The notes under the pieces: generated by a model | Database searches by the model: none | What the model was told of the DNA's origin: nothing | What the model saw: only the letters and a program-made list of their open reading frames with translations | Part shown: piece after piece, positions 33,241-44,307 of the stretch | Layout: each line of letters begins with the position of its first letter | Numbering within the stretch: the first letter of the stretch is position 1 | Origin: Magnetococcales bacterium | GTDB taxonomy: Bacteria; Pseudomonadota; Magnetococcia; Magnetococcales; UBA8363 | Length of the DNA stretch: 64,000 nt | Direction of reading: 5' to 3' | NCBI GenBank assembly: GCA_015228975.1 | Contig: JADGCN010000002.1 | Span: 6,323 to 70,322, forward strand | Made by a program: the position numbers and the translations under genes

Positions 33241-34572
33241 ATGGTTATGGACACGATAGCAGCCTGGATTTGGAACCCTTTTTTCAGTTTGATCTATATT
33301 GAGATCGGCATTTTGTTCCTGCTGATCACCCGCGGGCTTTCCTTGCGGGAACCTTTCGTGATGTTTTGGCGTATCCGGTCACAGAAAACCCAGGAAGGCG
33401 GCAACGAACACCACATTTCCCATATGACGGCTTTGGGTGCGGCCCTGGCTTCCAGTGTTGGGGTCGGCAATCTGGCGGGTGTGGGTACCGCCATTCATCT
33501 CGGTGGACCGGGGGCCATGTTTTGGTTGTGGGTTTCGGCCATTGTTGGCGGTTCTTTCCAAATGTGTTCCGCCTATCTGGCTGTGCGCCATGGACCTAAA
33601 GACGTCCATTCCATCCATTATGCCACCCCCATGTCCTATCTGGTCAAATTTGTCGGTCATTCCTGGCCGATGCTGGCGCCGATCCTTGCGGGATTGATTT
33701 TGTTTTATGGCATGGTCAGCGCCAATTTGATTCAGGCCAATTCCGTGTCCCGTGCCTTGGCCAATGAACTGGGTTCCTCCGATATTTGGGTGGCGATCAC
33801 CCTGTTTGTTACGGTGTCCGCCGTCATCGTTGGCGGCGTCAAATCCATTGTTCGCTTCAGTGCCATTATTGGTCCCTGGGTCACCGCACTTTTCGTGGCC
33901 TGTGGTTTGTTGATCCTCATCCTGAACCCGTTGGCCACCCTCAAGTCGTTGCAAACGATTTTCCAGGCGGCCTTTCACCCGTACGCCATGGGTGGGGGGG
34001 TGGCTGGGTATACGGTCATGCAGGCGATGCAGTTTGGTGTGGCTCGCGGGGTTTTTACCCATTTCTCTGGTTTGGGAATCGCTCCGTTCTACCAGAGCGC
34101 CAACGACGATCATCCCGCTGTCGGTGCCCATTTGGCGGCATTGGTGCCCTTGATCGACTCCTTGCTGGTTTGCAGTATCACCGGTTTGGTTGTCTTGGAC
34201 TTGGGTGACTGGCAGCAATTCACCGGGGCCTATCTGACCGCCACCGCCTTCCAGACGGGACTGGGTGACGGCGGACGGTGGGTGTTGTTTTTGTGTCTGG
34301 GAGTCTTTGCCTATACCACCATCATCAGTTGGGCCCATTTTTCCGAGCGGTGTTACCACTATTTGGGGGGACGCCGTGTGATCGCTTTTCGCTGGACATT
34401 TGCCGGCGTCACCTTTTGCGGTCCATTCATGCCGGTAAGCTTTATTTGGTCCATGGCCGATGTTGTTATTAGTTTAATGATCATGGTGCATCTTGTTCCA
34501 ATGATCTATATTGTCATAAAAACATTGCCGGAGATGCTCGCCGATCTTCGATCACCTGTTTTCCGCCAATAA
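33241..34572 (+). CDS. Alanine/glycine:cation symporter (AGCS) family transporter
   Basis: 443-aa polytopic membrane protein. GVGNLAGVGTAI..GGPGAMFWLW is typical of the AGCS family. Confidence 0.8.
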   Translation: MVMDTIAAWIWNPFFSLIYIEIGILFLLITRGLSLREPFVMFWRIRSQKTQEGGNEHHISHMTALGAALASSVGVGNLAGVGTAIHLGGPGAMFWLWVSAIVGGSFQMCSAYLAVRHGPKDVHSIHYATPMSYLVKFVGHSWPMLAPILAGLILFYGMVSANLIQANSVSRALANELGSSDIWVAITLFVTVSAVIVGGVKSIVRFSAIIGPWVTALFVACGLLILILNPLATLKSLQTIFQAAFHPYAMGGGVAGYTVMQAMQFGVARGVFTHFSGLGIAPFYQSANDDHPAVGAHLAALVPLIDSLLVCSITGLVVLDLGDWQQFTGAYLTATAFQTGLGDGGRWVLFLCLGVFAYTTIISWAHFSERCYHYLGGRRVIAFRWTFAGVTFCGPFMPVSFIWSMADVVISLMIMVHLVPMIYIVIKTLPEMLADLRSPVFRQ

Positions 34573-34612: not shown

Positions 34613-35839
34613 GTGTTGCAACGCTCCATGGAAGACCTCCTTTTTCTCAGCCATCGCATCCCCTATCCCCCCAACAAGGGGGATAAAGTGCGGTCTTATC
34701 ACCTGCTGCGCTTTCTGGCACGCCATTATCGGGTGCATGTCGGGGCTTTTATCGACACACCCGAAGATTGGGCCCATGCCCCTGTATTGCAGGAATTGTG
34801 TCATGGCGAAACCCATTGGGCCGCATTAAATCCCCGTTGGGCCAGGGTGAAAGCCTTGCGTGGTCTTTGGCGGGATCAGTCCCTTACTTATCATTATTAT
34901 GCCAACCGGGGCATGCAACGTTGGGTCAATGACCTCATGGGGCGTCTGAAGGTGCCGCGTATCCTGGTTTATTCGGCGGCTCCCTGTCGTTTTGTCATGC
35001 ATCCCTGGTCGCATCAGCCCAGGTGTGTGATTGATTTTGTCGATGTCGATTCGGTCAAATGGCTGGAGTATGCCCGGAGCAGCCGAGGTCTCATGAGTCG
35101 TATCCATGCCCGGGAGTCCAGGACCCTTCAGGAAATGGAGCGTGCCATTGCCAGTCGTTTTGCGGCCTCATTGTTCGTCAGTCATGCGGAGGCGGAATTG
35201 TTTCGGCAGGTGGCTCCCGAATCCGCGGATCGGGTTCATTATTGGGAAAATGGGGTGGACAGTGAGTTTTTCAACCCCCTGGAGGCCTATCCCAATCCCT
35301 ATGGTTCAGGTGAAACGTTGGTTTTTACCGGGGCCATGGACTATCGCCCGAATATTCAGGGGGTGGTTTGGTTTGCGGAACGTATTTTTTCCCGCATACG
35401 GCAAAAGTCACCCACCGCTCGATTTGCCATTGTCGGTGCCAGACCTGATCGAGCGGTGAAGCGTTTGGCGACCCAGGAGGGGATTGAAGTTGTTGGAGCG
35501 GTGGCGGATGTGCGGCCCTATCTGGCGCATGCCCGTGCGGCAGTGGCACCCTTGATGATTGCCCGTGGGGTGCAAAACAAGGTGTTGGAAGCGATGGCCA
35601 TGGCCAAGCCGGTGATCGCCACGCCCCAGGCGATGGAGGGGATCCGTTACCATCCGGGTTTGCACAATTGGGTGACCGAGAAACCGGAATTATTTGCCCA
35701 CTATGCCCTGAAACTTTTGGATCCGTTGGAAGGCGTTCAAAAAGCCGCTGAGTATGGCCAGATGGGGCGGCAATTTATCCTGGAACATTACCAGTGGGAG
35801 ACCAATTTGCAAAAAGTCCTGGGGATCTTGGAGCCTTGA
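34613..35839 (+). CDS. Glycosyltransferase of the PEP-CTERM/exosortase-locus-associated type (TIGR03087-like)
   Basis: N-terminal LFLSHRIPYPPNKGDKVRSYHLL is the hallmark I recall for this family, and the C-terminal half is GT-B-like. The start may be the Met at 34628. Confidence 0.75.
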   Translation: MLQRSMEDLLFLSHRIPYPPNKGDKVRSYHLLRFLARHYRVHVGAFIDTPEDWAHAPVLQELCHGETHWAALNPRWARVKALRGLWRDQSLTYHYYANRGMQRWVNDLMGRLKVPRILVYSAAPCRFVMHPWSHQPRCVIDFVDVDSVKWLEYARSSRGLMSRIHARESRTLQEMERAIASRFAASLFVSHAEAELFRQVAPESADRVHYWENGVDSEFFNPLEAYPNPYGSGETLVFTGAMDYRPNIQGVVWFAERIFSRIRQKSPTARFAIVGARPDRAVKRLATQEGIEVVGAVADVRPYLAHARAAVAPLMIARGVQNKVLEAMAMAKPVIATPQAMEGIRYHPGLHNWVTEKPELFAHYALKLLDPLEGVQKAAEYGQMGRQFILEHYQWETNLQKVLGILEP

Positions 35840-36975
35840 AAAGAATTTGTATCGCCCACGTGCTTTATCGTCTGGATGTAGGTGGTCTGGAGACCGTGGT
35901 CGTCAATCTGATGAACCGCCTTCCCCATGACCAATTTGAACACCATGTGATCGCCTTGACCCGCTGTGGCGATTTCAAAAACCGGGTCGAGCGTGCCGAT
36001 GTTTGTTATTACGAATTGGATAAGAAGGCCGGCAAGGATTGGCTGGTGTGGTTGCGCTTGTGGAAACTGTTGAACCATATAAAACCGGATGTGGTCCATT
36101 CCTGTAATATTGCCACGTTGGAGGGGTCCATACCCGCTTTTTTTGCGGGTCGTCCGCTTGTGGTGCATGCCGAACATGGTCGGGACAGTTACGACCCCCA
36201 TGGCGAAAATCGCACCTACATCTGGCTGCGGCGGCTGCTTCATCCTTTTGTCGATACATTTGTTTGCGTGTCGCGTGATTTGTATGTTTGGTTGCGGGAT
36301 CGGGTGGGCATTCCAGAACGGAAAATCAGGTTGATTGTCAATGGTATCGACAGTCATCGTTATACACCTGGATCCAAAATGGCCTTGCCTTGCCCCGGTT
36401 TTGCCGATGAAACATCGTTCATTATTGGCAGCGTGGGTCGGCTTTGGTCCATCAAGGATCCGGCCAATTTGGTGCGGGCTTTGGCGCATTTGGGCCGAGT
36501 GGATCCTCCTGGATTGCAGCGGTGCCGTCTGGTATTGGTTGGTGATGGACCTGAGCGCAGGGCCGTGGAGCAATTGGCCAAAGAATTGGGGGTGTTCGAT
36601 AAAATATGGATTACCGGTTGGCGCGATGATGTGGCGCAATTATTGCGATCTTTTGATCTGTTTGTGCTGCCTTCCCGGGCCGAAGGGACACCACTGACCA
36701 TCTTGGAAGCCATGGCCTGTGGCCTGCCAGTGGTCGCAACACGGGTCGGAGGTGTAGCCGATCTGGTCAAGGAGGGTGAAACCGGGAACTTGGTGCCTCC
36801 CCAGGACGCGGAAGCCTTGTCACAGGCAATTCTGCGCCACTTGCAGAATCCCCGGTGGTCGCATAGCCTGGGTGCCGCAGCTCGAAGACGGGTGGAACGC
36901 GATTATTCGCTGGATGCCATGGTCGAGGGGTATCGTGTCTTGTTTCTGAACCGTTTGTTACAAAAAATAGAATAG
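35836..36975 (+). CDS. GT4 glycosyltransferase of the PEP-CTERM/exosortase-locus-associated type (TIGR03088-like)
   Basis: TTG 35836 overlaps the upstream stop (TTGA). IAHVLYRLDVGGLETVVVNLMNRLP..HHVIALT start and an EGTPLTILEAMACGLPVVAT GT4 motif. Confidence 0.78.
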   Translation: MKRICIAHVLYRLDVGGLETVVVNLMNRLPHDQFEHHVIALTRCGDFKNRVERADVCYYELDKKAGKDWLVWLRLWKLLNHIKPDVVHSCNIATLEGSIPAFFAGRPLVVHAEHGRDSYDPHGENRTYIWLRRLLHPFVDTFVCVSRDLYVWLRDRVGIPERKIRLIVNGIDSHRYTPGSKMALPCPGFADETSFIIGSVGRLWSIKDPANLVRALAHLGRVDPPGLQRCRLVLVGDGPERRAVEQLAKELGVFDKIWITGWRDDVAQLLRSFDLFVLPSRAEGTPLTILEAMACGLPVVATRVGGVADLVKEGETGNLVPPQDAEALSQAILRHLQNPRWSHSLGAAARRRVERDYSLDAMVEGYRVLFLNRLLQKIE

Positions 36976-37039
36976 ATTACAATTCTTCTTTTGATTTTGT
37001 TTCATAAAAAGCGTACTCTCACACTGAGGTTTGGGTAAA

Positions 37040-37056: not shown

Positions 37057-37085
37057 ACTGCGCAATACTTCAAGGACAATCAGCC

Positions 37086-37592
37086 ATGGTTGACGGTCAG
37101 GACGGTCCGAAACATATCCAAAACATCTTGGATCCTGTGGCCTCAGGGGAGGTTGTCCCGGCTCAGACCAAGCTTGTCAGGCGACGTCTCATATTGAAAG
37201 GACTGGCTGCTGGTGTCCCTGCCGTCATTACCCTTCAAGGTGCCTCCTCTGCGGCTGCTGCGGCTACTTCCAGCGGTAACTGCATTACAGGTAGCAATAT
37301 AACCTCTTTGGCCAGCTATGGGACCAATCGGTGTGTTTCGACTGCGGTCGCTGCAACCAGTATTATTCAGCGTTACAATCGTACCGATACCACCGTCTGG
37401 GGGTCTACTGCGGCGGCGCCATGTACAGCCGGGGCTCCCATGGGTGCCATCTATACCAATGCTTCTGGTGTGGCCGCCACATCCAGTGCGGGAGGGGGCG
37501 CGAATTATTGGGGTGGCAATGCCGGTCAGAACGTTAATCCAGCCTCTGGATATTATGCAGTGACCAAATCATGCTGGGGTTCCTTCCACTAA
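37086..37592 (+). CDS. Small secreted Ala/Ser/Gly/Thr-rich four-Cys protein with a twin-arginine signal; candidate substrate of the downstream cassette
   Basis: 168 aa. AAGGA Shine-Dalgarno 9 nt upstream. VRRRLILKGLAAGVPAVITLQGASSAAAAA has a Tat-type RRxhhK motif, h-region and AxA sites. The mature part has four Cys and ends GYYAVTKSCWGSFH. Confidence 0.65.
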   Translation: MVDGQDGPKHIQNILDPVASGEVVPAQTKLVRRRLILKGLAAGVPAVITLQGASSAAAAATSSGNCITGSNITSLASYGTNRCVSTAVAATSIIQRYNRTDTTVWGSTAAAPCTAGAPMGAIYTNASGVAATSSAGGGANYWGGNAGQNVNPASGYYAVTKSCWGSFH

Positions 37593-37623: not shown

Positions 37624-37944
37624 ATGTCCATACTCGCCCCTGCCCCTGATGACGGATTTCCGTTGCCAACGCCGCACAGGTGGACACGGGGGAAATGCCC
37701 ACCACTGGTGCATGTCCCATTGGGTGATCATCACATGATTTTCAATCCCATGTCGGGCCATACCCATTGGATCAACGAATTGGTCGTCGACATCCTTGAA
37801 ATATTGGCCCAGCACCCCATGGATGGTCGGGAGTTGATGACAGAGATGCAATTGGACCCTGCAGAGGATAGCAACTTGGCGGAAATGGAACGCATCCTTA
37901 ATGAACTGGATCGCTTGGGTTTGATCTTTCCGGTTGCATCGTGA
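37624..37944 (+). CDS. PqqD-family (RiPP recognition element-like) protein, HPr-rel-A type
   Basis: 106 aa. HHMIFNPMSGHTHWINELVVDILEIL...ILNELDRLGLI follows the PqqD/RRE pattern of beta strands followed by LNE..a.I...L and a terminal L..L...GLI. Confidence 0.75.
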   Translation: MSILAPAPDDGFPLPTPHRWTRGKCPPLVHVPLGDHHMIFNPMSGHTHWINELVVDILEILAQHPMDGRELMTEMQLDPAEDSNLAEMERILNELDRLGLIFPVAS

Positions 37945-38861
37945 ACATCGGCCAACTGTCATCCCGAGAGCTGTGCAACCAACTGCGATCGACCGGGTTG
38001 CGCTGGATCCTCGGTCCCTTTATCGTCCATTTGCGCTCCCGGGTACCGGATTTTTTTCAGCATTTGCAGATGTTTTATCATGAAAATGAGATATTGGAAC
38101 CGCCGTGGGACGATATCGCTGATTTTCACGCATCGTTGCACCCTTCCTTTGGACTGCGGCGCTATTGGCGACCCAAAGTCAGTTTCCGTTTGGATGGCAA
38201 CTCCTTTTTCACCCCTTTTCCTTTGAGCCACGCCCCTCCCATGTTTGAGTGGGGGATGAATATGGCCGTCGCTTCCCGAAGCAATCACTATCTATTATTA
38301 CATGCGGCTGTTTTGGAAAAAGGGGGGTGCGCCCTGGTTTTACCGGGAACGCCGGGGTCCGGGAAAAGTACCTTGAGCGCAGCATTATCCCTGCGTGGGT
38401 TTCGTCTACTTTCGGATGAATTTGGATTGTATTGTCCGCAAAAAAAAGTGTTCATGGCCAATGCCCGACCTGTTGGGTTGAAAAATGAATCCATTGACGT
38501 GATTCGTGCTTTCGATCCCCGGGCGGTACTGAGTGAGGAATATCCCCACACCCGAAAAGGAACGGTCAGTTTTTTGCGGGTTCCGGTCGGGAGCGTGCAG
38601 CAGATCGATTTTGGCGTGGTGCCGCGCTGGATAGTCTTTCCCACGTTTGAACAGCAAAGCGCCACCTATTTGGAGAAAATTCCGGCAGGGGAAGGTTTTT
38701 TGCGTTTGGCTGCCAACGCTTTCAATTATGAAACCCTGGGACAAAGCGGATTTGGCGGCATTGCTGAGATGGTACGTGACTCACAGATGATGCAACTGCG
38801 TTTTGGTCGCCTGGATGAAGCGGTGGCCGAGTTGCAAAATTTGACTTCGGTAACACCATGA
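37941..38861 (+). CDS. HPr kinase-related P-loop kinase (HprK-related kinase A type)
   Basis: The GTG start overlaps the upstream stop (GTGA). LLLHAAVLEKGGCALVLPGTPGSGKSTLSAALSLRGFRLLSDEF..GLKNESIDVIR has an HprK-like Walker A and matches remembered family TIGR04352. Confidence 0.78.
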   Translation: MNIGQLSSRELCNQLRSTGLRWILGPFIVHLRSRVPDFFQHLQMFYHENEILEPPWDDIADFHASLHPSFGLRRYWRPKVSFRLDGNSFFTPFPLSHAPPMFEWGMNMAVASRSNHYLLLHAAVLEKGGCALVLPGTPGSGKSTLSAALSLRGFRLLSDEFGLYCPQKKVFMANARPVGLKNESIDVIRAFDPRAVLSEEYPHTRKGTVSFLRVPVGSVQQIDFGVVPRWIVFPTFEQQSATYLEKIPAGEGFLRLAANAFNYETLGQSGFGGIAEMVRDSQMMQLRFGRLDEAVAELQNLTSVTP

Positions 38862-40558
38862 ATCCTGTGAATGGGATTGTTGCCCGGGTCAGGGCTCGAC
38901 TTCCTTGGAGTCCAAGTCGATTCTCCCCAGTGGTCACCGGCGTGATGATTGGGATTCTGGGTTGGTTCGTGCGATCTTTTCCCAATTATTGCCCCGTGAG
39001 GCATACCCTGAACCGGTTGCTCATGGGTACCAATCGGTATGCCGATGCCTTGACCAGTCTACAGCAAACCGTGGCAAACGGTTGTGTCACGGCTCAGGTT
39101 CATGCCCATTTGGCGGTGGTATACAGGCATTCCCAGCGACTGATGGCGGCTGAAAAATCGATGCGCTCCGCCTTGGAACGGGAACCTGGCAATGCGAACT
39201 GGTGGACGGAACTGGGTGTTATCCTATCGCTGCGGCAACATCGCAATCTGGCTTTGCAGGCGTTTGTCAGGGCTATTGCGTTACAGCCTGATTGTGTTGA
39301 GGCGTTGTTTCATTTGGCCAGACTCCATCTGGAGGTCAGTTTTTTTAATGCAGCGTTGGCCGAAGAGTATAGCCGTCGTGCCCTGCAGGTTGATCCCAAT
39401 CACCTCGGCTCTCTTTCTTGCTGTGCTAACGCCCTTGGAATGTTGGGAAAGTTGCAGGAAGCAGCCGTTCTTCATGAAAAAATTCTGGCGTTATCCCCTA
39501 ACAATGCTTACGCCCTGGAAAACTTGCTGGCCATGAATTGCCTTCCCCTGGGACACAAGGGTGAGGAACTACAGTCCACAATGACAAGCATGTTTCCTGT
39601 AGATCAGGCCAAAAGTCTCTTTGCCATGGCTAAGATCCACATGAAGAAAAAAGATATTGATCAAGCTTTCGCCAGTTACCAGCAGGGCAATCGCATCATG
39701 CGCCAAAGCTTTTTTTACGCCATTGATCAGGACGCCATGAATGCACAACGTGTCCAGGCGGTATTTGATCAGCGTTTCTTTTCAGACCGTGCCGGTTGGG
39801 GTGATCCTGCGGACAAGCCGATTTTTATTGTGGGGATGCCACGTTCAGGAACCACCCTGGTGGAACAGATTCTCGCAACGCACCCGTTATGCCATGGTGG
39901 TGGGGAACGATTTGAAGTCTACGAACTTGCCAATACCATGGGAACCTTGTCTCGAACCCATCTGGCTTATCCCGAGGCGACACGGGAATTGACGCGGGAA
40001 GAGGTACGAATACTTGGGCACAGTTGCGTGCAATCCTTGACCCTGTTGAATCCTTCAGCCATCCGGATTACTGATAAGTTACCCCATAATTTTCACTATG
40101 TTGGCCTGATTCATCTCCTCATGCCCAATGCACGTATCATTCATTGCCGGCGTCATCCCCTGGATACCTGCCTGAGTTGCTACCAACAATTATTTGCTGG
40201 CCATATACCTTACGCCTATGATCTGGAGGAATTGGGGCGATACTACCGCATCTATCATCACCTGATGCGGCATTGGCAACAAGCCTTGCCGGGACGCATG
40301 TTGGACATCCACTATGAACAGGTTGTCGATGATCTGGAGATGATGGTCGGTCGCATTCTTGATTATTGTGGTTTGCCCTGGCATGATGATTGTCTGAATT
40401 TTCATCAAGTCGAGCGGCAGGTGGATACGGCTAGTTTTATTGAAGTGCGGCAACCTTTGTACCGAACTTCAAGAGGTCGATGGAAGGTTTTTGCAGAACA
40501 TTTGCAACCATTGCGGCACGCCCTGGGGGATGTGCTTGAAGATGCGGAAGGGTATTGA
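38858..40558 (+). CDS. TPR-repeat protein fused to a sulfotransferase domain
   Basis: The ATG overlaps the kinase stop (ATGA). TPR-like helices occupy about aa 60-230. PAPS 5'-phosphosulfate loop GMPRSGTTLVEQIL and 3'-phosphate motif IIHCRRHPLDTCLSCY. Confidence 0.82.
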   Translation: MNPVNGIVARVRARLPWSPSRFSPVVTGVMIGILGWFVRSFPNYCPVRHTLNRLLMGTNRYADALTSLQQTVANGCVTAQVHAHLAVVYRHSQRLMAAEKSMRSALEREPGNANWWTELGVILSLRQHRNLALQAFVRAIALQPDCVEALFHLARLHLEVSFFNAALAEEYSRRALQVDPNHLGSLSCCANALGMLGKLQEAAVLHEKILALSPNNAYALENLLAMNCLPLGHKGEELQSTMTSMFPVDQAKSLFAMAKIHMKKKDIDQAFASYQQGNRIMRQSFFYAIDQDAMNAQRVQAVFDQRFFSDRAGWGDPADKPIFIVGMPRSGTTLVEQILATHPLCHGGGERFEVYELANTMGTLSRTHLAYPEATRELTREEVRILGHSCVQSLTLLNPSAIRITDKLPHNFHYVGLIHLLMPNARIIHCRRHPLDTCLSCYQQLFAGHIPYAYDLEELGRYYRIYHHLMRHWQQALPGRMLDIHYEQVVDDLEMMVGRILDYCGLPWHDDCLNFHQVERQVDTASFIEVRQPLYRTSRGRWKVFAEHLQPLRHALGDVLEDAEGY

Positions 40559-40600
40559 TTCGGCAATGTTTGAAAGAAATCGGCCAGAGGGATAAAAAAC

Positions 40601-40972
40601 ATGGACTGTATCACCATTCGCGACTTGCACTTGCGGTGTATCATCGGTATTCAGGATTGGGAGCGCACCACCTTGCAGGATGTGTTTCTCTCCCTGACTC
40701 TGGAGACTGACCTTGAATTGGCGGGAAAATCAGATCGGATTGAGGACACCGTCAATTATAAAACATTGACTAAAAGGATTATCCACCATGTGGAAAACTC
40801 CAACCATTTTTTGGTTGAGGCACTGGCTGCTGACGTTGCCCGATTGGTGTTGGCGGATGAACGGGTTGTGCGCGTTCGGGTGGGCCTGGAAAAACCGGGG
40901 GCTTTGCGATTTGCCCGAAGCGTGGGTGTGGAGATTGAGCGGGACCGGCAATGGTTGACGAACGTATCCTGA
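40601..40972 (+). CDS. folB: Dihydroneopterin aldolase
   Basis: 123 aa. I.IRDL.L.CIIG...WER...Q.V.L...L and DTVNY motifs. Confidence 0.88.
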   Translation: MDCITIRDLHLRCIIGIQDWERTTLQDVFLSLTLETDLELAGKSDRIEDTVNYKTLTKRIIHHVENSNHFLVEALAADVARLVLADERVVRVRVGLEKPGALRFARSVGVEIERDRQWLTNVS

Positions 40973-41520
40973 TCGCCTTTGGATCCAATATTGATCCATT
41001 GGTGAACGTGAGTCGGGGACTCGAATTGCTGAACCATGAGATGGGTATCGATAAAATGTCCACGGTTTGGCGTACGGTAGCGTTATGCGACCCGGATCAA
41101 CCAGGGGAGAAGGATGTGGGGGGGGATTATCTGAACGGCGTGGTTCTATTGCGGGTTGGCGCTTTGGCCGTACACCCCTTGGAACTGCGGCAGGTGCTGC
41201 GGTCCCTTGAGTATCGCTGTGGAAGGAGACGTGGCCCGAAAAGATACGCCCCTCGTACTTTGGATCTCGATATCGTCTTGATGGGCTCCACGGTGTTTGA
41301 CAGCGATGGGCTGGTTCTTCCCGATCCAGATCTGATGCGGCGTCCTTTTCTCGTGATGCCCTGCGCCGAACTGGCTCCCGATCTGATACATCCTCGGGAA
41401 CATCTTTCATTGGCCAGGCTGGTTCAAGATTTGCCAGCGCCCGAACTGACCATGCGTCGGGATGGGGCCGCTGAAAGCGCGTTGCTCGCCCTGCTGCAGT
41501 GTCATTCTGGCGTCCCTTGA
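40951..41520 (+). CDS. folK: 2-amino-4-hydroxy-6-hydroxymethyldihydropteridine diphosphokinase
   Basis: 189 aa. ILIAFGSNI.., PRTLDLDIV.. and LPDPDLMRRPFLVMPCAEL. Overlaps folB by 22 nt. Confidence 0.9.
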   Translation: MVDERILIAFGSNIDPLVNVSRGLELLNHEMGIDKMSTVWRTVALCDPDQPGEKDVGGDYLNGVVLLRVGALAVHPLELRQVLRSLEYRCGRRRGPKRYAPRTLDLDIVLMGSTVFDSDGLVLPDPDLMRRPFLVMPCAELAPDLIHPREHLSLARLVQDLPAPELTMRRDGAAESALLALLQCHSGVP

Positions 41521-43727: not shown

Positions 43728-43857
43728 CCCCATGGATTGATGGTGCGAACCGCAATCGGGATTTGATTGCACATTTGCGTTTCTTGAAATAACATCCGCA
43801 TTGATTGCGTCAACGCGAGACGTGGATGGATGGGTCATTCTTAAACCTGTGAGCGCC

Positions 43858-44307
43858 ATGGGCATCAAAATAATCAGCGACAACCGGAAGGCGCGCTTCA
43901 ACTATGAAATCCTCGAAAAATTGGAGGTCGGGATCGTTTTGACCGGCACCGAGGTGAAATCATTGCGCGCTGGCAAACTGAATATGGGCGAATCTTATGC
44001 TACGGTCATGCGCGAGGAATTGTTTTGGCTGCGTGCCAATATTCCCACCTATAGCCACGGTAACCAGTTCAATCACGATCCCCTGCGCATTCGCAAACTT
44101 TTGGTACATAAGAAAGAATTAAACCGTTTTATCGGCATCACCCAGGAGAAGGGCCTGACCCTCGTCCCCTTGAAGGTCTATTGGAAGGATGGCAAGGTCA
44201 AGTTGGAACTCGGGGTGGGGCGGGGTAAAAAATTGTTCGATAAGCGTAAAACCATTCGTGATCGCGACTGGAACCGCGATAAGGCACGCGTCCTTAAAGG
44301 GGGATAG
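43858..44307 (+). CDS. smpB: SsrA-binding protein
   Basis: IISDNRKARFNYEILEKLEVGIVLTGTEVKSLR and KRKTIRDRDW. The ORF-track start at 43801 is an extension. Confidence 0.95.
   Translation: MGIKIISDNRKARFNYEILEKLEVGIVLTGTEVKSLRAGKLNMGESYATVMREELFWLRANIPTYSHGNQFNHDPLRIRKLLVHKKELNRFIGITQEKGLTLVPLKVYWKDGKVKLELGVGRGKKLFDKRKTIRDRDWNRDKARVLKGG

What the first reader, a model, noticed from the sequence alone, without database searches (positions are those of the whole stretch)
37086..37592. Candidate substrate: protein with Tat signal, four Cys, low-complexity A/S/G/T composition and an aromatic C-terminal tail
Seen in sequence: the first 31 residues are hydrophilic and precede VRRRLILKGLAAGVPAVITLQGASSAAAAA, which has a twin-arginine RRxhhK motif, an h-region and AxA sites. 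The roughly 110-aa mature part is dominated by A, S, G, T and N. It has exactly four Cys (SGNCITG, NRCVST, APCTAG, KSCWGS) and ends GYYAVTKSCWGSFH. I do not recognise the family. Inference: the unusually long n-region before the RR motif could double as a leader recognised by the adjacent PqqD-like protein. The Tyr/Ser/Thr-rich C-terminus offers acceptor sites for the kinase or sulfotransferase.
Basis: partly seen in the sequence, partly recalled or inferred. Interest (0 to 1): 0.55.

Follow-up and report, generated by a model that had tools for sequence, protein, structure and literature searches.

The report
Likely substrate protein of PqqD–kinase cassette
This small unannotated secreted-type protein is the local version of a partner gene found next to nearly every copy of a widespread, uncharacterised chaperone–kinase cassette, so it is probably the protein that cassette modifies before export.

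Summary
The ORF at 37086-37592 (+) is real. It encodes 168 aa, is under purifying selection, and its four Cys are conserved. The organism is a Magnetococcales bacterium. Residues 70-168 are a confidently predicted compact fold with no relative in Pfam, NCBIfam or PDB, so it is not low-complexity filler.

The main result comes from comparing genomes. In 82 of 85 loci that encode an HprK-related kinase A, a protein with the same N-terminal block lies in the cassette. In 80 of them it sits directly 5' of the PqqD-like gene. The other 3 loci are cut off by a contig end. The shared block is [A/S]-RRR-[L/F]-x-[K/R]-x-G followed by an uncharged ...TL.S... stretch. The mature domains differ between lineages, and in Planctomycetota the protein shrinks to a 67-aa peptide. 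All members are annotated "hypothetical protein".

The twin-arginine/hydrophobic segment is the most conserved part (58% identity).

Best explanation, inferred and not shown: the PqqD-like chaperone binds the Tat-like leader. The kinase and, in this clade, a TPST-like sulfotransferase then modify the conserved C-terminal tail (GYYAVTKSCWGSFH) in the cytoplasm before Tat export. The closest analogue is the kinase/nucleotidyltransferase tailoring of paeninodin-type lasso peptides.

The parts
34613..35839 (+). stp1, PEP-CTERM/XrtA-system glycosyltransferase (context)
   Evidence: TIGR03087, 506 bits against a cutoff of 317. The same gene lies upstream in the related Magnetococcales loci.
35794..36975 (+). 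stp2, PEP-CTERM/XrtA-system GT4 glycosyltransferase (context, immediately 5' of the ORF)
   Evidence: TIGR03088, 476 bits against a cutoff of 409. It is the conserved upstream neighbour in Magnetococcales.
36955..36983 (+). Promoter-like site in the 110-nt gap before the ORF (weak)
   Evidence: TTGTTA-17-TACAAT, 9 of 12 matches. Two sites were found against 0.9 expected by chance, so this is only a hint.
37072..37076 (+). Shine-Dalgarno-like AAGGA, 9 nt before the ATG
   Evidence: Read directly from the sequence.
37086..37592 (+). CDS of the 168-aa protein (stop included). Type-1 member of the partner family of the HPr-rel-A cassette.
37086..37178 (+). n-region, aa 1-31: hydrophilic, net charge -2, poorly conserved outside the closest clade
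   Evidence: 16% mean identity across 44 family members. Under 1 bit per column across 80 partner proteins.
37179..37268 (+). Twin-arginine signal-like leader, aa 32-61: RRR-LILK, uncharged h-region GLAAGVPAVITLQGASS, then AAAAAT (Ala-x-Ala sites)
   Evidence: Most conserved segment, at 58% identity. R33, R34, P45 and T49 are invariant. It is the only block shared by all 80 partner proteins.
37269..37589 (+). Mature domain, aa 62-168: small-residue-rich compact fold with Cys66, Cys83, Cys113 and Cys163
   Evidence: pLDDT 86-95 for residues 70-168. No Foldseek or sequence match in PDB. No Pfam or NCBIfam hit.
37536..37589 (+). Conserved C-terminal tail, aa 151-168 (NPASGYYAVTKSCWGSFH): candidate acceptor region (Y156/Y157, S162, S166)
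   Evidence: 50% identity. S162, W164 and S166 are at least 90% conserved. The YY motif co-occurs with the sulfotransferase. The acceptor role itself is inference.
37624..37944 (+). PqqD-family peptide chaperone of the HPr-rel-A system (RiPP-recognition-element type)
   Evidence: TIGR04353, 45.2 bits against a cutoff of 35. It lies between the partner gene and the kinase in the surveyed loci.
37941..38861 (+). HprK-related kinase A, a P-loop kinase. Its start overlaps the PqqD stop by 4 nt.
   Evidence: TIGR04352, 335 bits against a cutoff of 200. The model has pLDDT 94 and matches PEP carboxykinase and HprK/P folds. The P-loop GSGKST is invariant.
38858..40558 (+). TPR-repeat + TPST-like sulfotransferase. 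Its start overlaps the kinase stop by 4 nt. It is specific to this Magnetococcales clade.
   Evidence: Sulfotransfer_3, E=3e-50, plus TPR repeats. The closest PDB chains are protein-tyrosine sulfotransferases. It is present only in L001-L008, L090 and L091 among the surveyed loci.

Best explanation
The ORF encodes the dedicated substrate, a precursor protein, of the adjacent three-enzyme cassette.

**Shown**
- It is a real, conserved gene.
- It belongs to a set of proteins that accompanies the PqqD-like/HprK-related-kinase-A pair in essentially every genome sampled.
- What these proteins share is an N-terminal twin-arginine, signal-like block. Their mature domains differ between lineages.

**Inferred mechanism**
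1. After translation, the PqqD-family chaperone binds the conserved RRR + hydrophobic leader, as RiPP recognition elements bind leader peptides and as TorD/DmsD/NapD-type chaperones hold Tat signal peptides.
2. This holds the protein in the cytoplasm and presents it to the P-loop kinase, which phosphorylates a hydroxyl residue. The most likely site is in the conserved C-terminal tail (S162/S166), by analogy with the HprK-like kinases that phosphorylate the C-terminal Ser of linear lasso-peptide precursors.
3. In this Magnetococcales clade a TPR/TPST-like sulfotransferase also acts, probably on the invariant Tyr156-Tyr157. In most other lineages an NTP_transf_5 enzyme follows the kinase instead, and by analogy with PsmN it would add sugar to the phosphate.
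4. The modified protein is exported by the Tat pathway. The leader is cleaved near Ala59-Ala61, releasing a protein of about 107 aa that probably contains disulfides.
5. That protein works with the XrtA/PEP-CTERM exopolysaccharide machinery encoded alongside.
For: **Linkage**
- All homologues whose contexts were looked up lie directly 5' of PqqD-HprK_A.
- jackhmmer from this ORF against 7,849 ORFs of 86 loci gave 84 hits in 82 of 85 kinase loci. Eighty loci have the hit directly upstream on the same strand. Two have it only about 2.8 kb downstream, still inside the cassette. Three loci lack upstream sequence. There were no hits anywhere else.

**Leader**
- RR is present in 80 of 80 non-redundant partners, with a conserved block from position -1 to +25 relative to RR.
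- Within the family the leader is more conserved than the mature part (58% against 30%), the reverse of what ordinary signal peptides show.
- A profile search of 1.84 billion proteins returned only 76 hits. Those examined share the same architecture, so the leader is not a generic Tat signal.

**Substrate-like behaviour**
- The mature part is interchangeable: type 1 ends ..SCW.SF, type 2 ends ..YL..T, and there are others.
- In Planctomycetota the partner shrinks to a 67-aa Ser/Thr/Gly-rich peptide.
- One locus carries a second copy.

**Enzymology by analogy**
- HprK-like kinases phosphorylate the C-terminal Ser of linear lasso precursors. PsmN, an uncharacterised nucleotidyltransferase, adds hexose to that phosphate. 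Putative sulfotransferase genes also occur in such clusters (PMC8498205; PMC6993621).
- The module X-PqqD-kinase-NTP_transf_5 is near-universal in the surveyed loci.

**C-terminal tail**
- It is 50% conserved.
- A [S/T]-aromatic/Met motif within 5 residues of the C-terminus occurs in 51% of partners, against at most 1% of neighbouring enzymes and 8% of all ORFs.
- YY co-occurs with the sulfotransferase, 8/8 against 1/10.
- The sulfotransferase domain is closest to TPSTs.

**Operon signs**
- 4-nt start/stop overlaps link PqqD, the kinase and the sulfotransferase.
Against: - No biochemical evidence of binding, phosphorylation, sulfation or export exists, and nothing relevant was found in the searchable literature.
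- Gene adjacency does not prove an enzyme-substrate relation.
- The mature part is a confidently folded 100-aa domain. This is unlike classical RiPP cores, and the tail helix (161-167) is part of that fold.
- The NCBIfam scan returned no Tat-signal match, and RefSeq names these proteins only "hypothetical protein". No Tat predictor could be run, and no tat genes lie in the window.
- Four conserved Cys that look like disulfide partners sit oddly with Tat export of a protein folded in the cytoplasm.
- The C-terminal and YY statistics come from a few related clades and are not phylogenetically independent.
- The window lacks the NTP_transf_5 gene that the canonical cassette has.
Confidence: 0.55

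Rival explanations
1. Co-operonic but unmodified. The ORF is a secreted or periplasmic structural or accessory protein of the XrtA/PEP-CTERM exopolysaccharide system, for example a matrix or assembly factor. The PqqD-like protein, kinase and sulfotransferase act on something else, such as PEP-CTERM proteins or a sugar/lipid intermediate of the polysaccharide.
For: - The cassette lies inside EPS loci: stp1/stp2, Poly_export, AsnB-type amidotransferase and PEP-CTERM genes are neighbours.
- The mature domain is a well-folded protein rather than a peptide.
- Sulfotransferases and nucleotidyltransferases could plausibly act on polysaccharide.
Against: - PqqD-family proteins are peptide- or protein-binding modules, and NCBI names this one a "peptide chaperone".
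- Only the leader, not the mature domain, is conserved across lineages. The partner can be as small as a 67-aa peptide. That is hard to square with a structural role for the mature part.
- The partner stays inside the four-gene module even where the surrounding EPS genes differ.
- The sulfotransferase is closest to protein-tyrosine sulfotransferases, not carbohydrate ones.
Confidence: 0.2
2. Uncleaved signal-anchor. The RRR + hydrophobic segment is a transmembrane anchor. The hydrophilic N-terminus stays in the cytoplasm, where it docks PqqD and the kinase at the membrane or is itself phosphorylated. The small C-terminal domain faces the periplasm, giving a membrane scaffold or sensor for EPS assembly.
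For: - The hydrophobic block is unusually conserved for a cleaved signal.
- Uncleaved Tat signal-anchors exist, for example in Rieske proteins (background knowledge).
- All the enzymes are predicted to be cytoplasmic, so a cytoplasmic tail would be accessible after insertion.
Against: - The cytoplasmic n-region is the least conserved part and has no conserved Ser/Thr/Tyr.
- The h-region has moderate hydrophobicity (KD 1.2) and contains Gly and Pro, which is more typical of signals than of anchors.
- Ala-x-Ala or V-L-G cleavage motifs follow the block in both main types.
- The C-terminal tail, not the N-terminus, shows the conservation and the link to the sulfotransferase.
Confidence: 0.13
3. 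Bacteriocin- or signal-type RiPP. The protein is a precursor of a secreted antimicrobial or signalling molecule comparable to class II microcins or RaxX, and its link to the EPS locus is incidental.
For: - The mature region is small-residue-rich, nearly uncharged and has a C-terminal Cys.
- An RRE-type protein is adjacent.
- RaxX/RaxST is a precedent for a sulfated bacterial peptide (background knowledge).
Against: - No leader peptidase, peptidase-containing ABC exporter or immunity gene lies in this or the related loci.
- The leader is Tat-like, not double-glycine.
- The link to XrtA/PEP-CTERM EPS genes is systematic across phyla.
Confidence: 0.05

Closest known systems
Tailoring module of paeninodin/pseudomycoidin-type lasso peptides (B1 PqqD-like RRE + HprK-like kinase PadeK/PsmK + nucleotidyltransferase PsmN; putative sulfotransferases in some clusters)
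   Same: The enzyme set is the same: a PqqD-family protein, an HPr-kinase-family P-loop kinase, an uncharacterised nucleotidyltransferase (in the canonical cassette) and/or a sulfotransferase, next to a ribosomally made substrate. In lasso systems the kinase acts on the C-terminal Ser of the linear precursor and PsmN adds hexose to the phosphate (PMC8498205; PMC6993621). Here the C-terminal tail is also conserved and rich in hydroxyl residues.
   Different: There is no lasso cyclase, B2 peptidase or ABC exporter. The substrate is a 107-aa folded domain behind a twin-arginine signal-like leader, not a core of about 20 aa. The cassette sits in exopolysaccharide loci.
NCBIfam 'HPr-rel-A system' (TIGR04352 HprK-related kinase A + TIGR04353 PqqD-family peptide chaperone)
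   Same: The two genes 3' of the ORF are bona fide members, both above the curated cutoffs.
   Different: Neither curated library searched has a model that hits the partner protein. Seven diverse members gave no significant hit in NCBIfam or Pfam, and RefSeq calls them "hypothetical protein". The system has no published function in the searchable literature.
Tat signal-peptide-binding maturation chaperones (TorD, DmsD, NapD and relatives)
   Same: The concept matches: a dedicated small cytoplasmic protein, encoded next to its substrate, would bind the twin-arginine signal and delay export until cytoplasmic maturation is complete. Signal peptides under that kind of constraint are unusually conserved, as this one is.
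   Different: The PqqD/RRE fold is unrelated to those chaperones. Maturation here would be covalent modification rather than cofactor insertion. Binding of PqqD to the signal is only inferred. The comparison rests on background knowledge.
RaxX/RaxST tyrosine-sulfated peptide of Xanthomonas, and eukaryotic TPSTs
   Same: A TPST-like sulfotransferase domain (closest PDB chains are TPSTs, E=4e-10 to 1e-4) is encoded beside a secreted-type protein with conserved Tyr residues (GYYA[V/I]T). The motif and the enzyme co-occur.
   Different: RaxX has a double-glycine leader and a peptidase-containing ABC exporter, and no RRE or kinase (background knowledge). The Tyr residues here lack the acidic neighbours typical of TPST sites. 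The enzyme carries an N-terminal TPR domain.
HPr kinase/phosphorylase with its substrate HPr
   Same: The kinase has a P-loop, PEP-carboxykinase-like catalytic fold (Foldseek hits to PEPCK at about 1e-7 and to HprK/P at about 1e-3. Weak PDB sequence hit to HprK).
   Different: The ORF is not HPr-like (no PTS-HPr family hit). The kinase has a different N-terminal domain, and the genomic context is EPS rather than carbon catabolite control.

Membership tests
Tat (twin-arginine) signal peptide | Twin Arg within an S/T-R-R-x-F-L-K-like motif | tested here: met
   R33-R34-L-I-L-K38 in the window. RR is present in 80 of 80 partner proteins, with consensus [A/S]-R-R-R-[L/F]-[L/T]-[K/R].
Tat (twin-arginine) signal peptide | Moderately hydrophobic, uncharged h-region followed by a short c-region with an Ala-x-Ala type cleavage site | tested here: met
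   About 23 uncharged residues (39-61), mean KD 1.2, containing Gly and Pro, ending AAAAAT. Equivalent ALA or VLG motifs occur in relatives. Judged by inspection only.
Tat (twin-arginine) signal peptide | Recognition by a trained model or predictor (TIGR01409, TatP, SignalP 6) | tested here: inconclusive
   The NCBIfam scan, which should include its Tat-signal model TIGR01409, listed nothing at E<=1 for this protein or six relatives, but HMMER's filters drop weak short matches. RefSeq names give no Tat label. TatP and SignalP were not available.
Tat (twin-arginine) signal peptide | Export depends on TatABC, and tat genes are present in the genome | not testable with these tools
   No tat genes were noticed among the window's ORFs, which were not systematically annotated. 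The rest of the genome was not available.
RiPP precursor (RRE-dependent) | Encoded next to a PqqD-like RiPP recognition element and modifying enzymes | tested here: met
RiPP precursor (RRE-dependent) | Conserved leader region distinct from a variable core | tested here: met
   The leader block is conserved across at least 3 unrelated mature-domain types.
RiPP precursor (RRE-dependent) | Short peptide product (precursor typically under about 100 aa, unstructured core) | tested here: not met
   168 aa, with a 107-aa mature domain predicted to fold at pLDDT about 90. Only the Planctomycetota versions are peptide-sized, at 67 aa. It may work like a RiPP precursor but is not filed as one.
RiPP precursor (RRE-dependent) | Physical binding of the leader by the RRE | not testable with these tools
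HPr-rel-A system (NCBIfam) | Adjacent TIGR04353 PqqD-family and TIGR04352 kinase genes above curated cutoffs | tested here: met
   45.2 against 35 bits and 335.1 against 200 bits.
HPr-rel-A system (NCBIfam) | NTP_transf_5 nucleotidyltransferase directly after the kinase. This is an empirical feature of the cassette in the surveyed loci, not part of the NCBIfam definition. | tested here: not met
   Present after the kinase in nearly all surveyed loci but absent from the whole 64-kb window. Here a TPR-sulfotransferase follows the kinase.
Lasso peptide gene cluster | Asn-synthetase-like macrolactam synthetase (C) and transglutaminase-like leader peptidase (B2) | tested here: not met
   No Asn_synthase hit in the window. 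In related loci the Asn_synthase protein also carries GATase_6/7 domains, as a glutamine amidotransferase does. No B2-like gene was seen.
PEP-CTERM sorting-signal protein | C-terminal PEP motif, transmembrane helix and Arg-rich end | tested here: not met
   The C-terminus is ...KSCWGSFH. No PEP-CTERM model hit.
Bacterial lipoprotein | Lipobox [LVI][ASTVI][GAS]C at the end of the signal | tested here: not met
   The first Cys is preceded by S-G-N in the window. In relatives it is preceded by W-A, L-V or E-T, and no canonical lipobox is present.

The most novel reading that the evidence does not exclude
A PqqD-type recognition element acts as a proofreading chaperone for a twin-arginine signal peptide. 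It would couple cytoplasmic phosphorylation, followed by sulfation or phospho-glycosylation, of whole small proteins to their Tat export. That would be a previously undescribed, RiPP-like protein-modification and export pathway. It would be present in a large number of genomes, mostly Proteobacteria plus some Planctomycetota (more than 5,500 kinase clusters), and it would supply modified proteins to the XrtA/PEP-CTERM exopolysaccharide or floc matrix. The ORF at 37086-37592 would be one of its substrates, carrying sulfotyrosine at Y156/Y157 and phosphoserine near the C-terminus.
Probability: 0.3. Interest if true: 0.85.

Novelty: new variant of a known kind. Interest (0 to 1): 0.62.

Why it matters
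**An orphan system gains a candidate substrate.** It has curated models, yet I found no known substrate and no literature.

**The substrate can now be tested.** A single, always-adjacent, never-annotated partner with a shared twin-arginine-type leader gives the system a concrete candidate. The experiments are simple mass-spectrometry and genetics in cultured hosts:
- Magnetococcus marinus MC-1, where Mmc1_0592 is the partner, Mmc1_0593 the PqqD-like protein, and the kinase, NTP_transf_5 and AsnB genes follow directly.
- Methylotuvimicrobium alcaliphilum 20Z, where the partner is WP_014148381.1.

**If the mechanism holds, it would:**
- extend RRE-guided modification from peptides to folded, Tat-exported proteins;
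- add a bacterial TPST-like enzyme with a defined target;
- tie protein modification to PEP-CTERM/exosortase biofilm and floc formation.

**A practical by-product.** A profile of the leader would let annotation pipelines name a whole set of proteins now labelled "hypothetical".

Tried and rejected
- **Pfam and NCBIfam scans** of the ORF and six diverse relatives found nothing significant.
- **PDB searches** found no relative of the ORF by sequence or by Foldseek on the model.
- **Literature searches** gave only unrelated hits or the lasso-peptide papers. Terms tried: "ScmC" (the name of Pfam PF27840, which the precomputed tables assign to the kinase), "HprK-related kinase", TIGR04352/TIGR04353, PF14907, PEP-CTERM + PqqD, exosortase + PqqD, and twin-arginine + RRE. 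I never learned where the name ScmC comes from.
- **Word-indexed homologue searches** with the ORF and with the family alignment found only 5 and 13 proteins, because the words are low-complexity. The exhaustive profile search and the locus-based jackhmmer were what revealed the family.
- **Rejected readings:**
  - PEP-CTERM protein: wrong C-terminus.
  - Lipoprotein: no lipobox.
  - HiPIP-like Fe-S protein: no family hit, no CxxC spacing, and Cys number varies from 2 to 17 in other partner types.
  - Formylglycine-type C-x-P-x-R motif in type-2 partners: the motif there is C-x-[S/T]-P-S-G, without the Arg.
  - Conserved N-glycosylation: the three N-x-S/T sequons in the window protein are not conserved in homologues.
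- **tRNA/tmRNA and Rfam scans** of the window were empty.
Full report
**1.

- It has Cys at 66, 83, 113 and 163 and the C-terminus GYYAVTKSCWGSFH.
- Its N-terminal plan is a 31-residue hydrophilic stretch, then VRRRLILKGLAAGVPAVITLQGASSAAAAA.
- Residues 62-168 are 64% Ala/Ser/Gly/Thr/Asn and have only five charged residues.

The gene is real.
- An AAGGA lies 9 nt before the ATG.
- dN/dS against four homologues is 0.14-0.23.
- The start (M1, D3, G4, P8), the RRR-...-K block and all four Cys are invariant in the closest homologues.

The best database match (99% identity) comes from a Magnetococcales metagenome-assembled genome. "Low-complexity" is the one part of the description that misleads: with a 44-sequence alignment, AlphaFold2 gives pLDDT 86-95 for residues 70-168 and about 50-58 for residues 1-60. 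The mature part is therefore a compact domain behind a flexible leader.

**2. The surroundings**

All these genes are on the + strand.

| Coordinates | Gene | Evidence |
|---|---|---|
| 33241-34572 | Na/Ala symporter | |
| 34613-35839 | stp1, XrtA/PEP-CTERM glycosyltransferase (TIGR03087) | |
| 35794-36975 | stp2, XrtA/PEP-CTERM glycosyltransferase (TIGR03088) | |
| 37086-37592 | the ORF | |
| 37624-37944 | "HPr-rel-A system PqqD family peptide chaperone" (TIGR04353, 45 bits against cutoff 35) | |
| 37941-38861 | "HprK-related kinase A" (TIGR04352, 335 against 200) | |
| 38858-40558 | TPR + Sulfotransfer_3 protein | |
| downstream | unrelated folB/folK/dapA/cytochrome c genes | |

- The PqqD, kinase and sulfotransferase genes overlap by 4 nt at each junction, which points to one operon.
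- The kinase model is very confident (pLDDT 94). It matches PEP-carboxykinase and HprK/P folds, and its P-loop is invariant.
- The closest solved relatives of the sulfotransferase domain are protein-tyrosine sulfotransferases (E=4e-10 for 8w5z, about 1e-5 for TPST1/2).

**3. What the ORF is: the unannotated partner of a widespread cassette**

*The family.*
- A word-indexed search found only five homologues, all from Magnetococcales.
- An exhaustive profile search of 1.84 billion representative proteins found 76 (33 at E<=1e-10). All but one are 110-270 aa long.
- The clear members share one plan: a variable hydrophilic N-terminus; [A/R]RRR[L/F]LKG.AAGVPA..TL.SGAALA; a Cys soon after; ...RC...; ...C.VYVD.G...; and a ...YYA.T.SCW.SF end. 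The weaker hits match only the leader region.

*The contexts.*
- All homologues whose contexts were looked up lie directly 5' of a PqqD-like gene and an HprK-A gene. These include Magnetococcus marinus MC-1 (Mmc1_0592) and Magnetococcus sp. PR-3.
- The reverse test matters more. The kinase family is huge, with more than 5,568 clusters.
- I fetched 80 loci around kinase genes from one-genome-per-species data. They cover Beta-, Gamma- and Alphaproteobacteria, Magnetococcales and Planctomycetota.
- I then ran jackhmmer from the window ORF over all 7,849 ORFs of at least 40 aa in 86 loci.

*The result.*
- 84 hits fell in 82 of 85 kinase loci.
- 80 loci have the hit on the same strand, immediately upstream of the PqqD gene.
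- 2 loci have it only about 2.8 kb downstream but still within the cassette, and one locus has a second copy there.
- The 3 loci without a hit have fewer than 700 nt of contig upstream of the kinase.
- No hit fell anywhere else.

The canonical module is partner-PqqD-kinase-NTP_transf_5. No Pfam or NCBIfam model hits any of seven diverse partners, and RefSeq calls them "hypothetical protein". No paper on the system was found.

**4. What is conserved and what is not**

I aligned 80 non-redundant partners on the Arg pair.
- The conserved block is [A/S]-R-R-R-[L/F]-[L/T]-[K/R]-x-G-L-A-A-x-x-V-L-x-T-L-x-S. RR is invariant in 80 of 80.
- An SPase-I-like A-x-A or V-L-G motif follows, and the first Cys comes 24-45 (median 28) residues after RR.
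- Upstream of RR there is under 1 bit per column.

Mean pairwise identity within the 44-member type-1 family:

| Segment | Identity |
|---|---|
| n-region | 16% |
| RR + h + c region | 58% |
| Mature domain | 30% |
| Last 18 residues | 50% |

The mature domains fall into at least three unrelated kinds:
- 16 of type 1, ending ..SCW.SF, which includes the window protein;
- 45 of type 2, mostly betaproteobacterial, ending ..W....IV.YL..T;
- 20 others.

In Planctomycetota the partner is only a 67-aa peptide: the leader followed by a Ser/Thr/Gly-rich tail.

Ordinary signal peptides evolve faster than mature proteins (background knowledge). Here the opposite is true, and the profile search did not pull in generic Tat substrates. 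The leader is therefore under an extra, system-specific constraint. The obvious candidate is binding by the always-adjacent PqqD-family protein.

**5. Likely mechanism (inferred)**

All the enzymes use cytoplasmic co-substrates (ATP, PAPS, NDP-sugars), so any modification must come before export. The twin-arginine motif fits the Tat consensus, and the Tat pathway exports proteins that have already matured in the cytoplasm.

The best documented analogue is the tailoring of paeninodin- and pseudomycoidin-type lasso peptides.
- An HprK-family kinase phosphorylates the C-terminal Ser of the linear precursor.
- PsmN, an uncharacterised nucleotidyltransferase, adds hexoses to that phosphate.
- Putative sulfotransferase genes occur in some of these clusters (PMC8498205; PMC6993621).

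The cassette here has the same enzyme kinds plus the PqqD element, but it lacks the cyclase, the B2 peptidase and the exporter.

Evidence consistent with modification of the C-terminal tail:
- The tail is the second most conserved segment.
- A [S/T]-aromatic/Met motif within five residues of the end occurs in 51% of partners, against at most 1% of the neighbouring enzymes and 8% of all ORFs.
- The GYYA[V/I]T Tyr pair is present in 8 of 8 type-1 proteins whose cassette includes the TPST-like sulfotransferase, and in 1 of 10 without it (Fisher p=4e-4).

These counts come from related clades. They are suggestive, not proof.

**6. Peculiarities of the window copy**

The TPR-sulfotransferase occurs only in this Magnetococcales clade (L001-L008, L090, L091). 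In the fuller versions of that clade the order is partner-PqqD-kinase-sulfotransferase-NTP_transf_5-AsnB. The window, L001 and L006 lack NTP_transf_5 and AsnB at this site, and neither gene occurs anywhere in the 64-kb window. If the model is right, the product here would be phospho- and/or sulfo-modified but not phospho-glycosylated, unless those genes lie elsewhere in the genome.

**7. Rivals**
- **Co-operonic EPS accessory protein that is not modified (0.20).** The EPS context and the folded domain favour it. The leader-only conservation and the peptide-sized Planctomycetota versions count against it.
- **Uncleaved signal-anchor that docks the enzymes at the membrane (0.13).** Leader conservation favours it. 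The unconserved cytoplasmic tail and the cleavage-site motifs count against it.
- **Bacteriocin- or signal-type RiPP (0.05).** There is no peptidase, exporter or immunity gene.
- **Non-gene.** Excluded by the evidence in section 1.

**8. Limits**
- Nothing here shows binding, modification or export.
- The Tat assignment rests on the motif alone. The NCBIfam scan returned no Tat-signal match, no predictor was available, and no tat genes are in the window.
- Four conserved Cys that look like disulfide partners are unusual for a Tat passenger.
- Direct homology between this kinase and the lasso kinases was not tested.

**9. Verdict**

The "candidate substrate" reading is well supported by comparative genomics, but the recognition element should be moved from the n-region to the twin-arginine/h-region block.

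This is a new variant of a known kind: RRE-guided modification, here apparently applied to Tat-type secreted proteins in exopolysaccharide loci. It fills the missing-substrate slot of a catalogued but uncharacterised system. Interest is 0.62.

Noticed in passing
window 38858-40558: The TPR + sulfotransferase protein is closest to protein-tyrosine sulfotransferases among solved structures. All clade homologues have a hydrophobic, Arg-interrupted N-terminal segment, for example VVTGVMIGILGWFV. This could be a membrane tether or an amphipathic helix, and its topology is unresolved.
   Followed up: partly
window 40559-41520 compared with L002 9869-12857, L003 13806-16779, L090 10402-13384, L091 10681-13639: Relatives in the same clade carry NTP_transf_5 and an AsnB-type amidotransferase after the sulfotransferase. 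In the window, folB/folK follow directly, and neither gene occurs anywhere in the 64 kb. This looks like a local loss or relocation of the last two cassette genes.
   Followed up: partly
L084 5493-5696; L083 80-205: In Planctomycetota the gene 5' of PqqD encodes only a short peptide. It is 67 aa in L084. In L083 a 41-aa ORF lies 80 nt from the contig end, so its true start may be missing. The peptide has the same RRR...LTL leader followed by a Ser/Thr/Gly-rich tail ending in PP, making it a RiPP-sized version of the partner.
   Followed up: partly
L010 5030-5662, L079 4958-5671, L071 5172-5759, L087 7090-7671, L088 7092-7718 and about 40 other loci: This is a second, mainly betaproteobacterial partner family of about 190-250 aa. 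It has the same leader but a different mature domain. That domain starts C-x-[S/T]-P-S-G-[F/A]-x-S-G-N-x-S-x-H-G, which contains a conserved N-x-S sequon, and ends ...GY[Y/F]EPTAGV.W....IV.YL..T. It has no Pfam or NCBIfam hit.
   Followed up: partly
L074 8140-8724; L069 3390-4145; L081 8134-8790: In three loci a partner gene lies about 2.8 kb downstream of the kinase start. In L074 it is a second copy; in L069 and L081 it is the only copy. So gene order can change while the partner stays in the cassette.
   Followed up: no
precomputed Pfam tables for the kinases (e.g. L002 7268-8203): The kinase family carries a recent Pfam label, PF27840 "ScmC". That model is absent from, or did not score in, the local Pfam copy. 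I could not trace the origin of the name in the literature.
   Followed up: partly
window 37296-37304, 37377-37385, 37458-37466 (Asn71, Asn98, Asn125): The window protein has three N-x-S/T sequons (NIT, NRT, NAS). They are not conserved column-wise in homologues and are probably a by-product of the N/S/T-rich composition.
   Followed up: partly
window 35794-35839: As called from the first available start codon, the stp1 and stp2 ORFs overlap by 46 nt. The stp2 start is probably further downstream, as in L001 and L002, where the two genes are separated by a few bases.
   Followed up: no
window 1-64000: No tRNA, tmRNA or Rfam family was detected in the whole window, even though an smpB-like ORF lies at 43801-44307. 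The smpB assignment rests on the SmpB Pfam hit at the equivalent position in L001.
   Followed up: no
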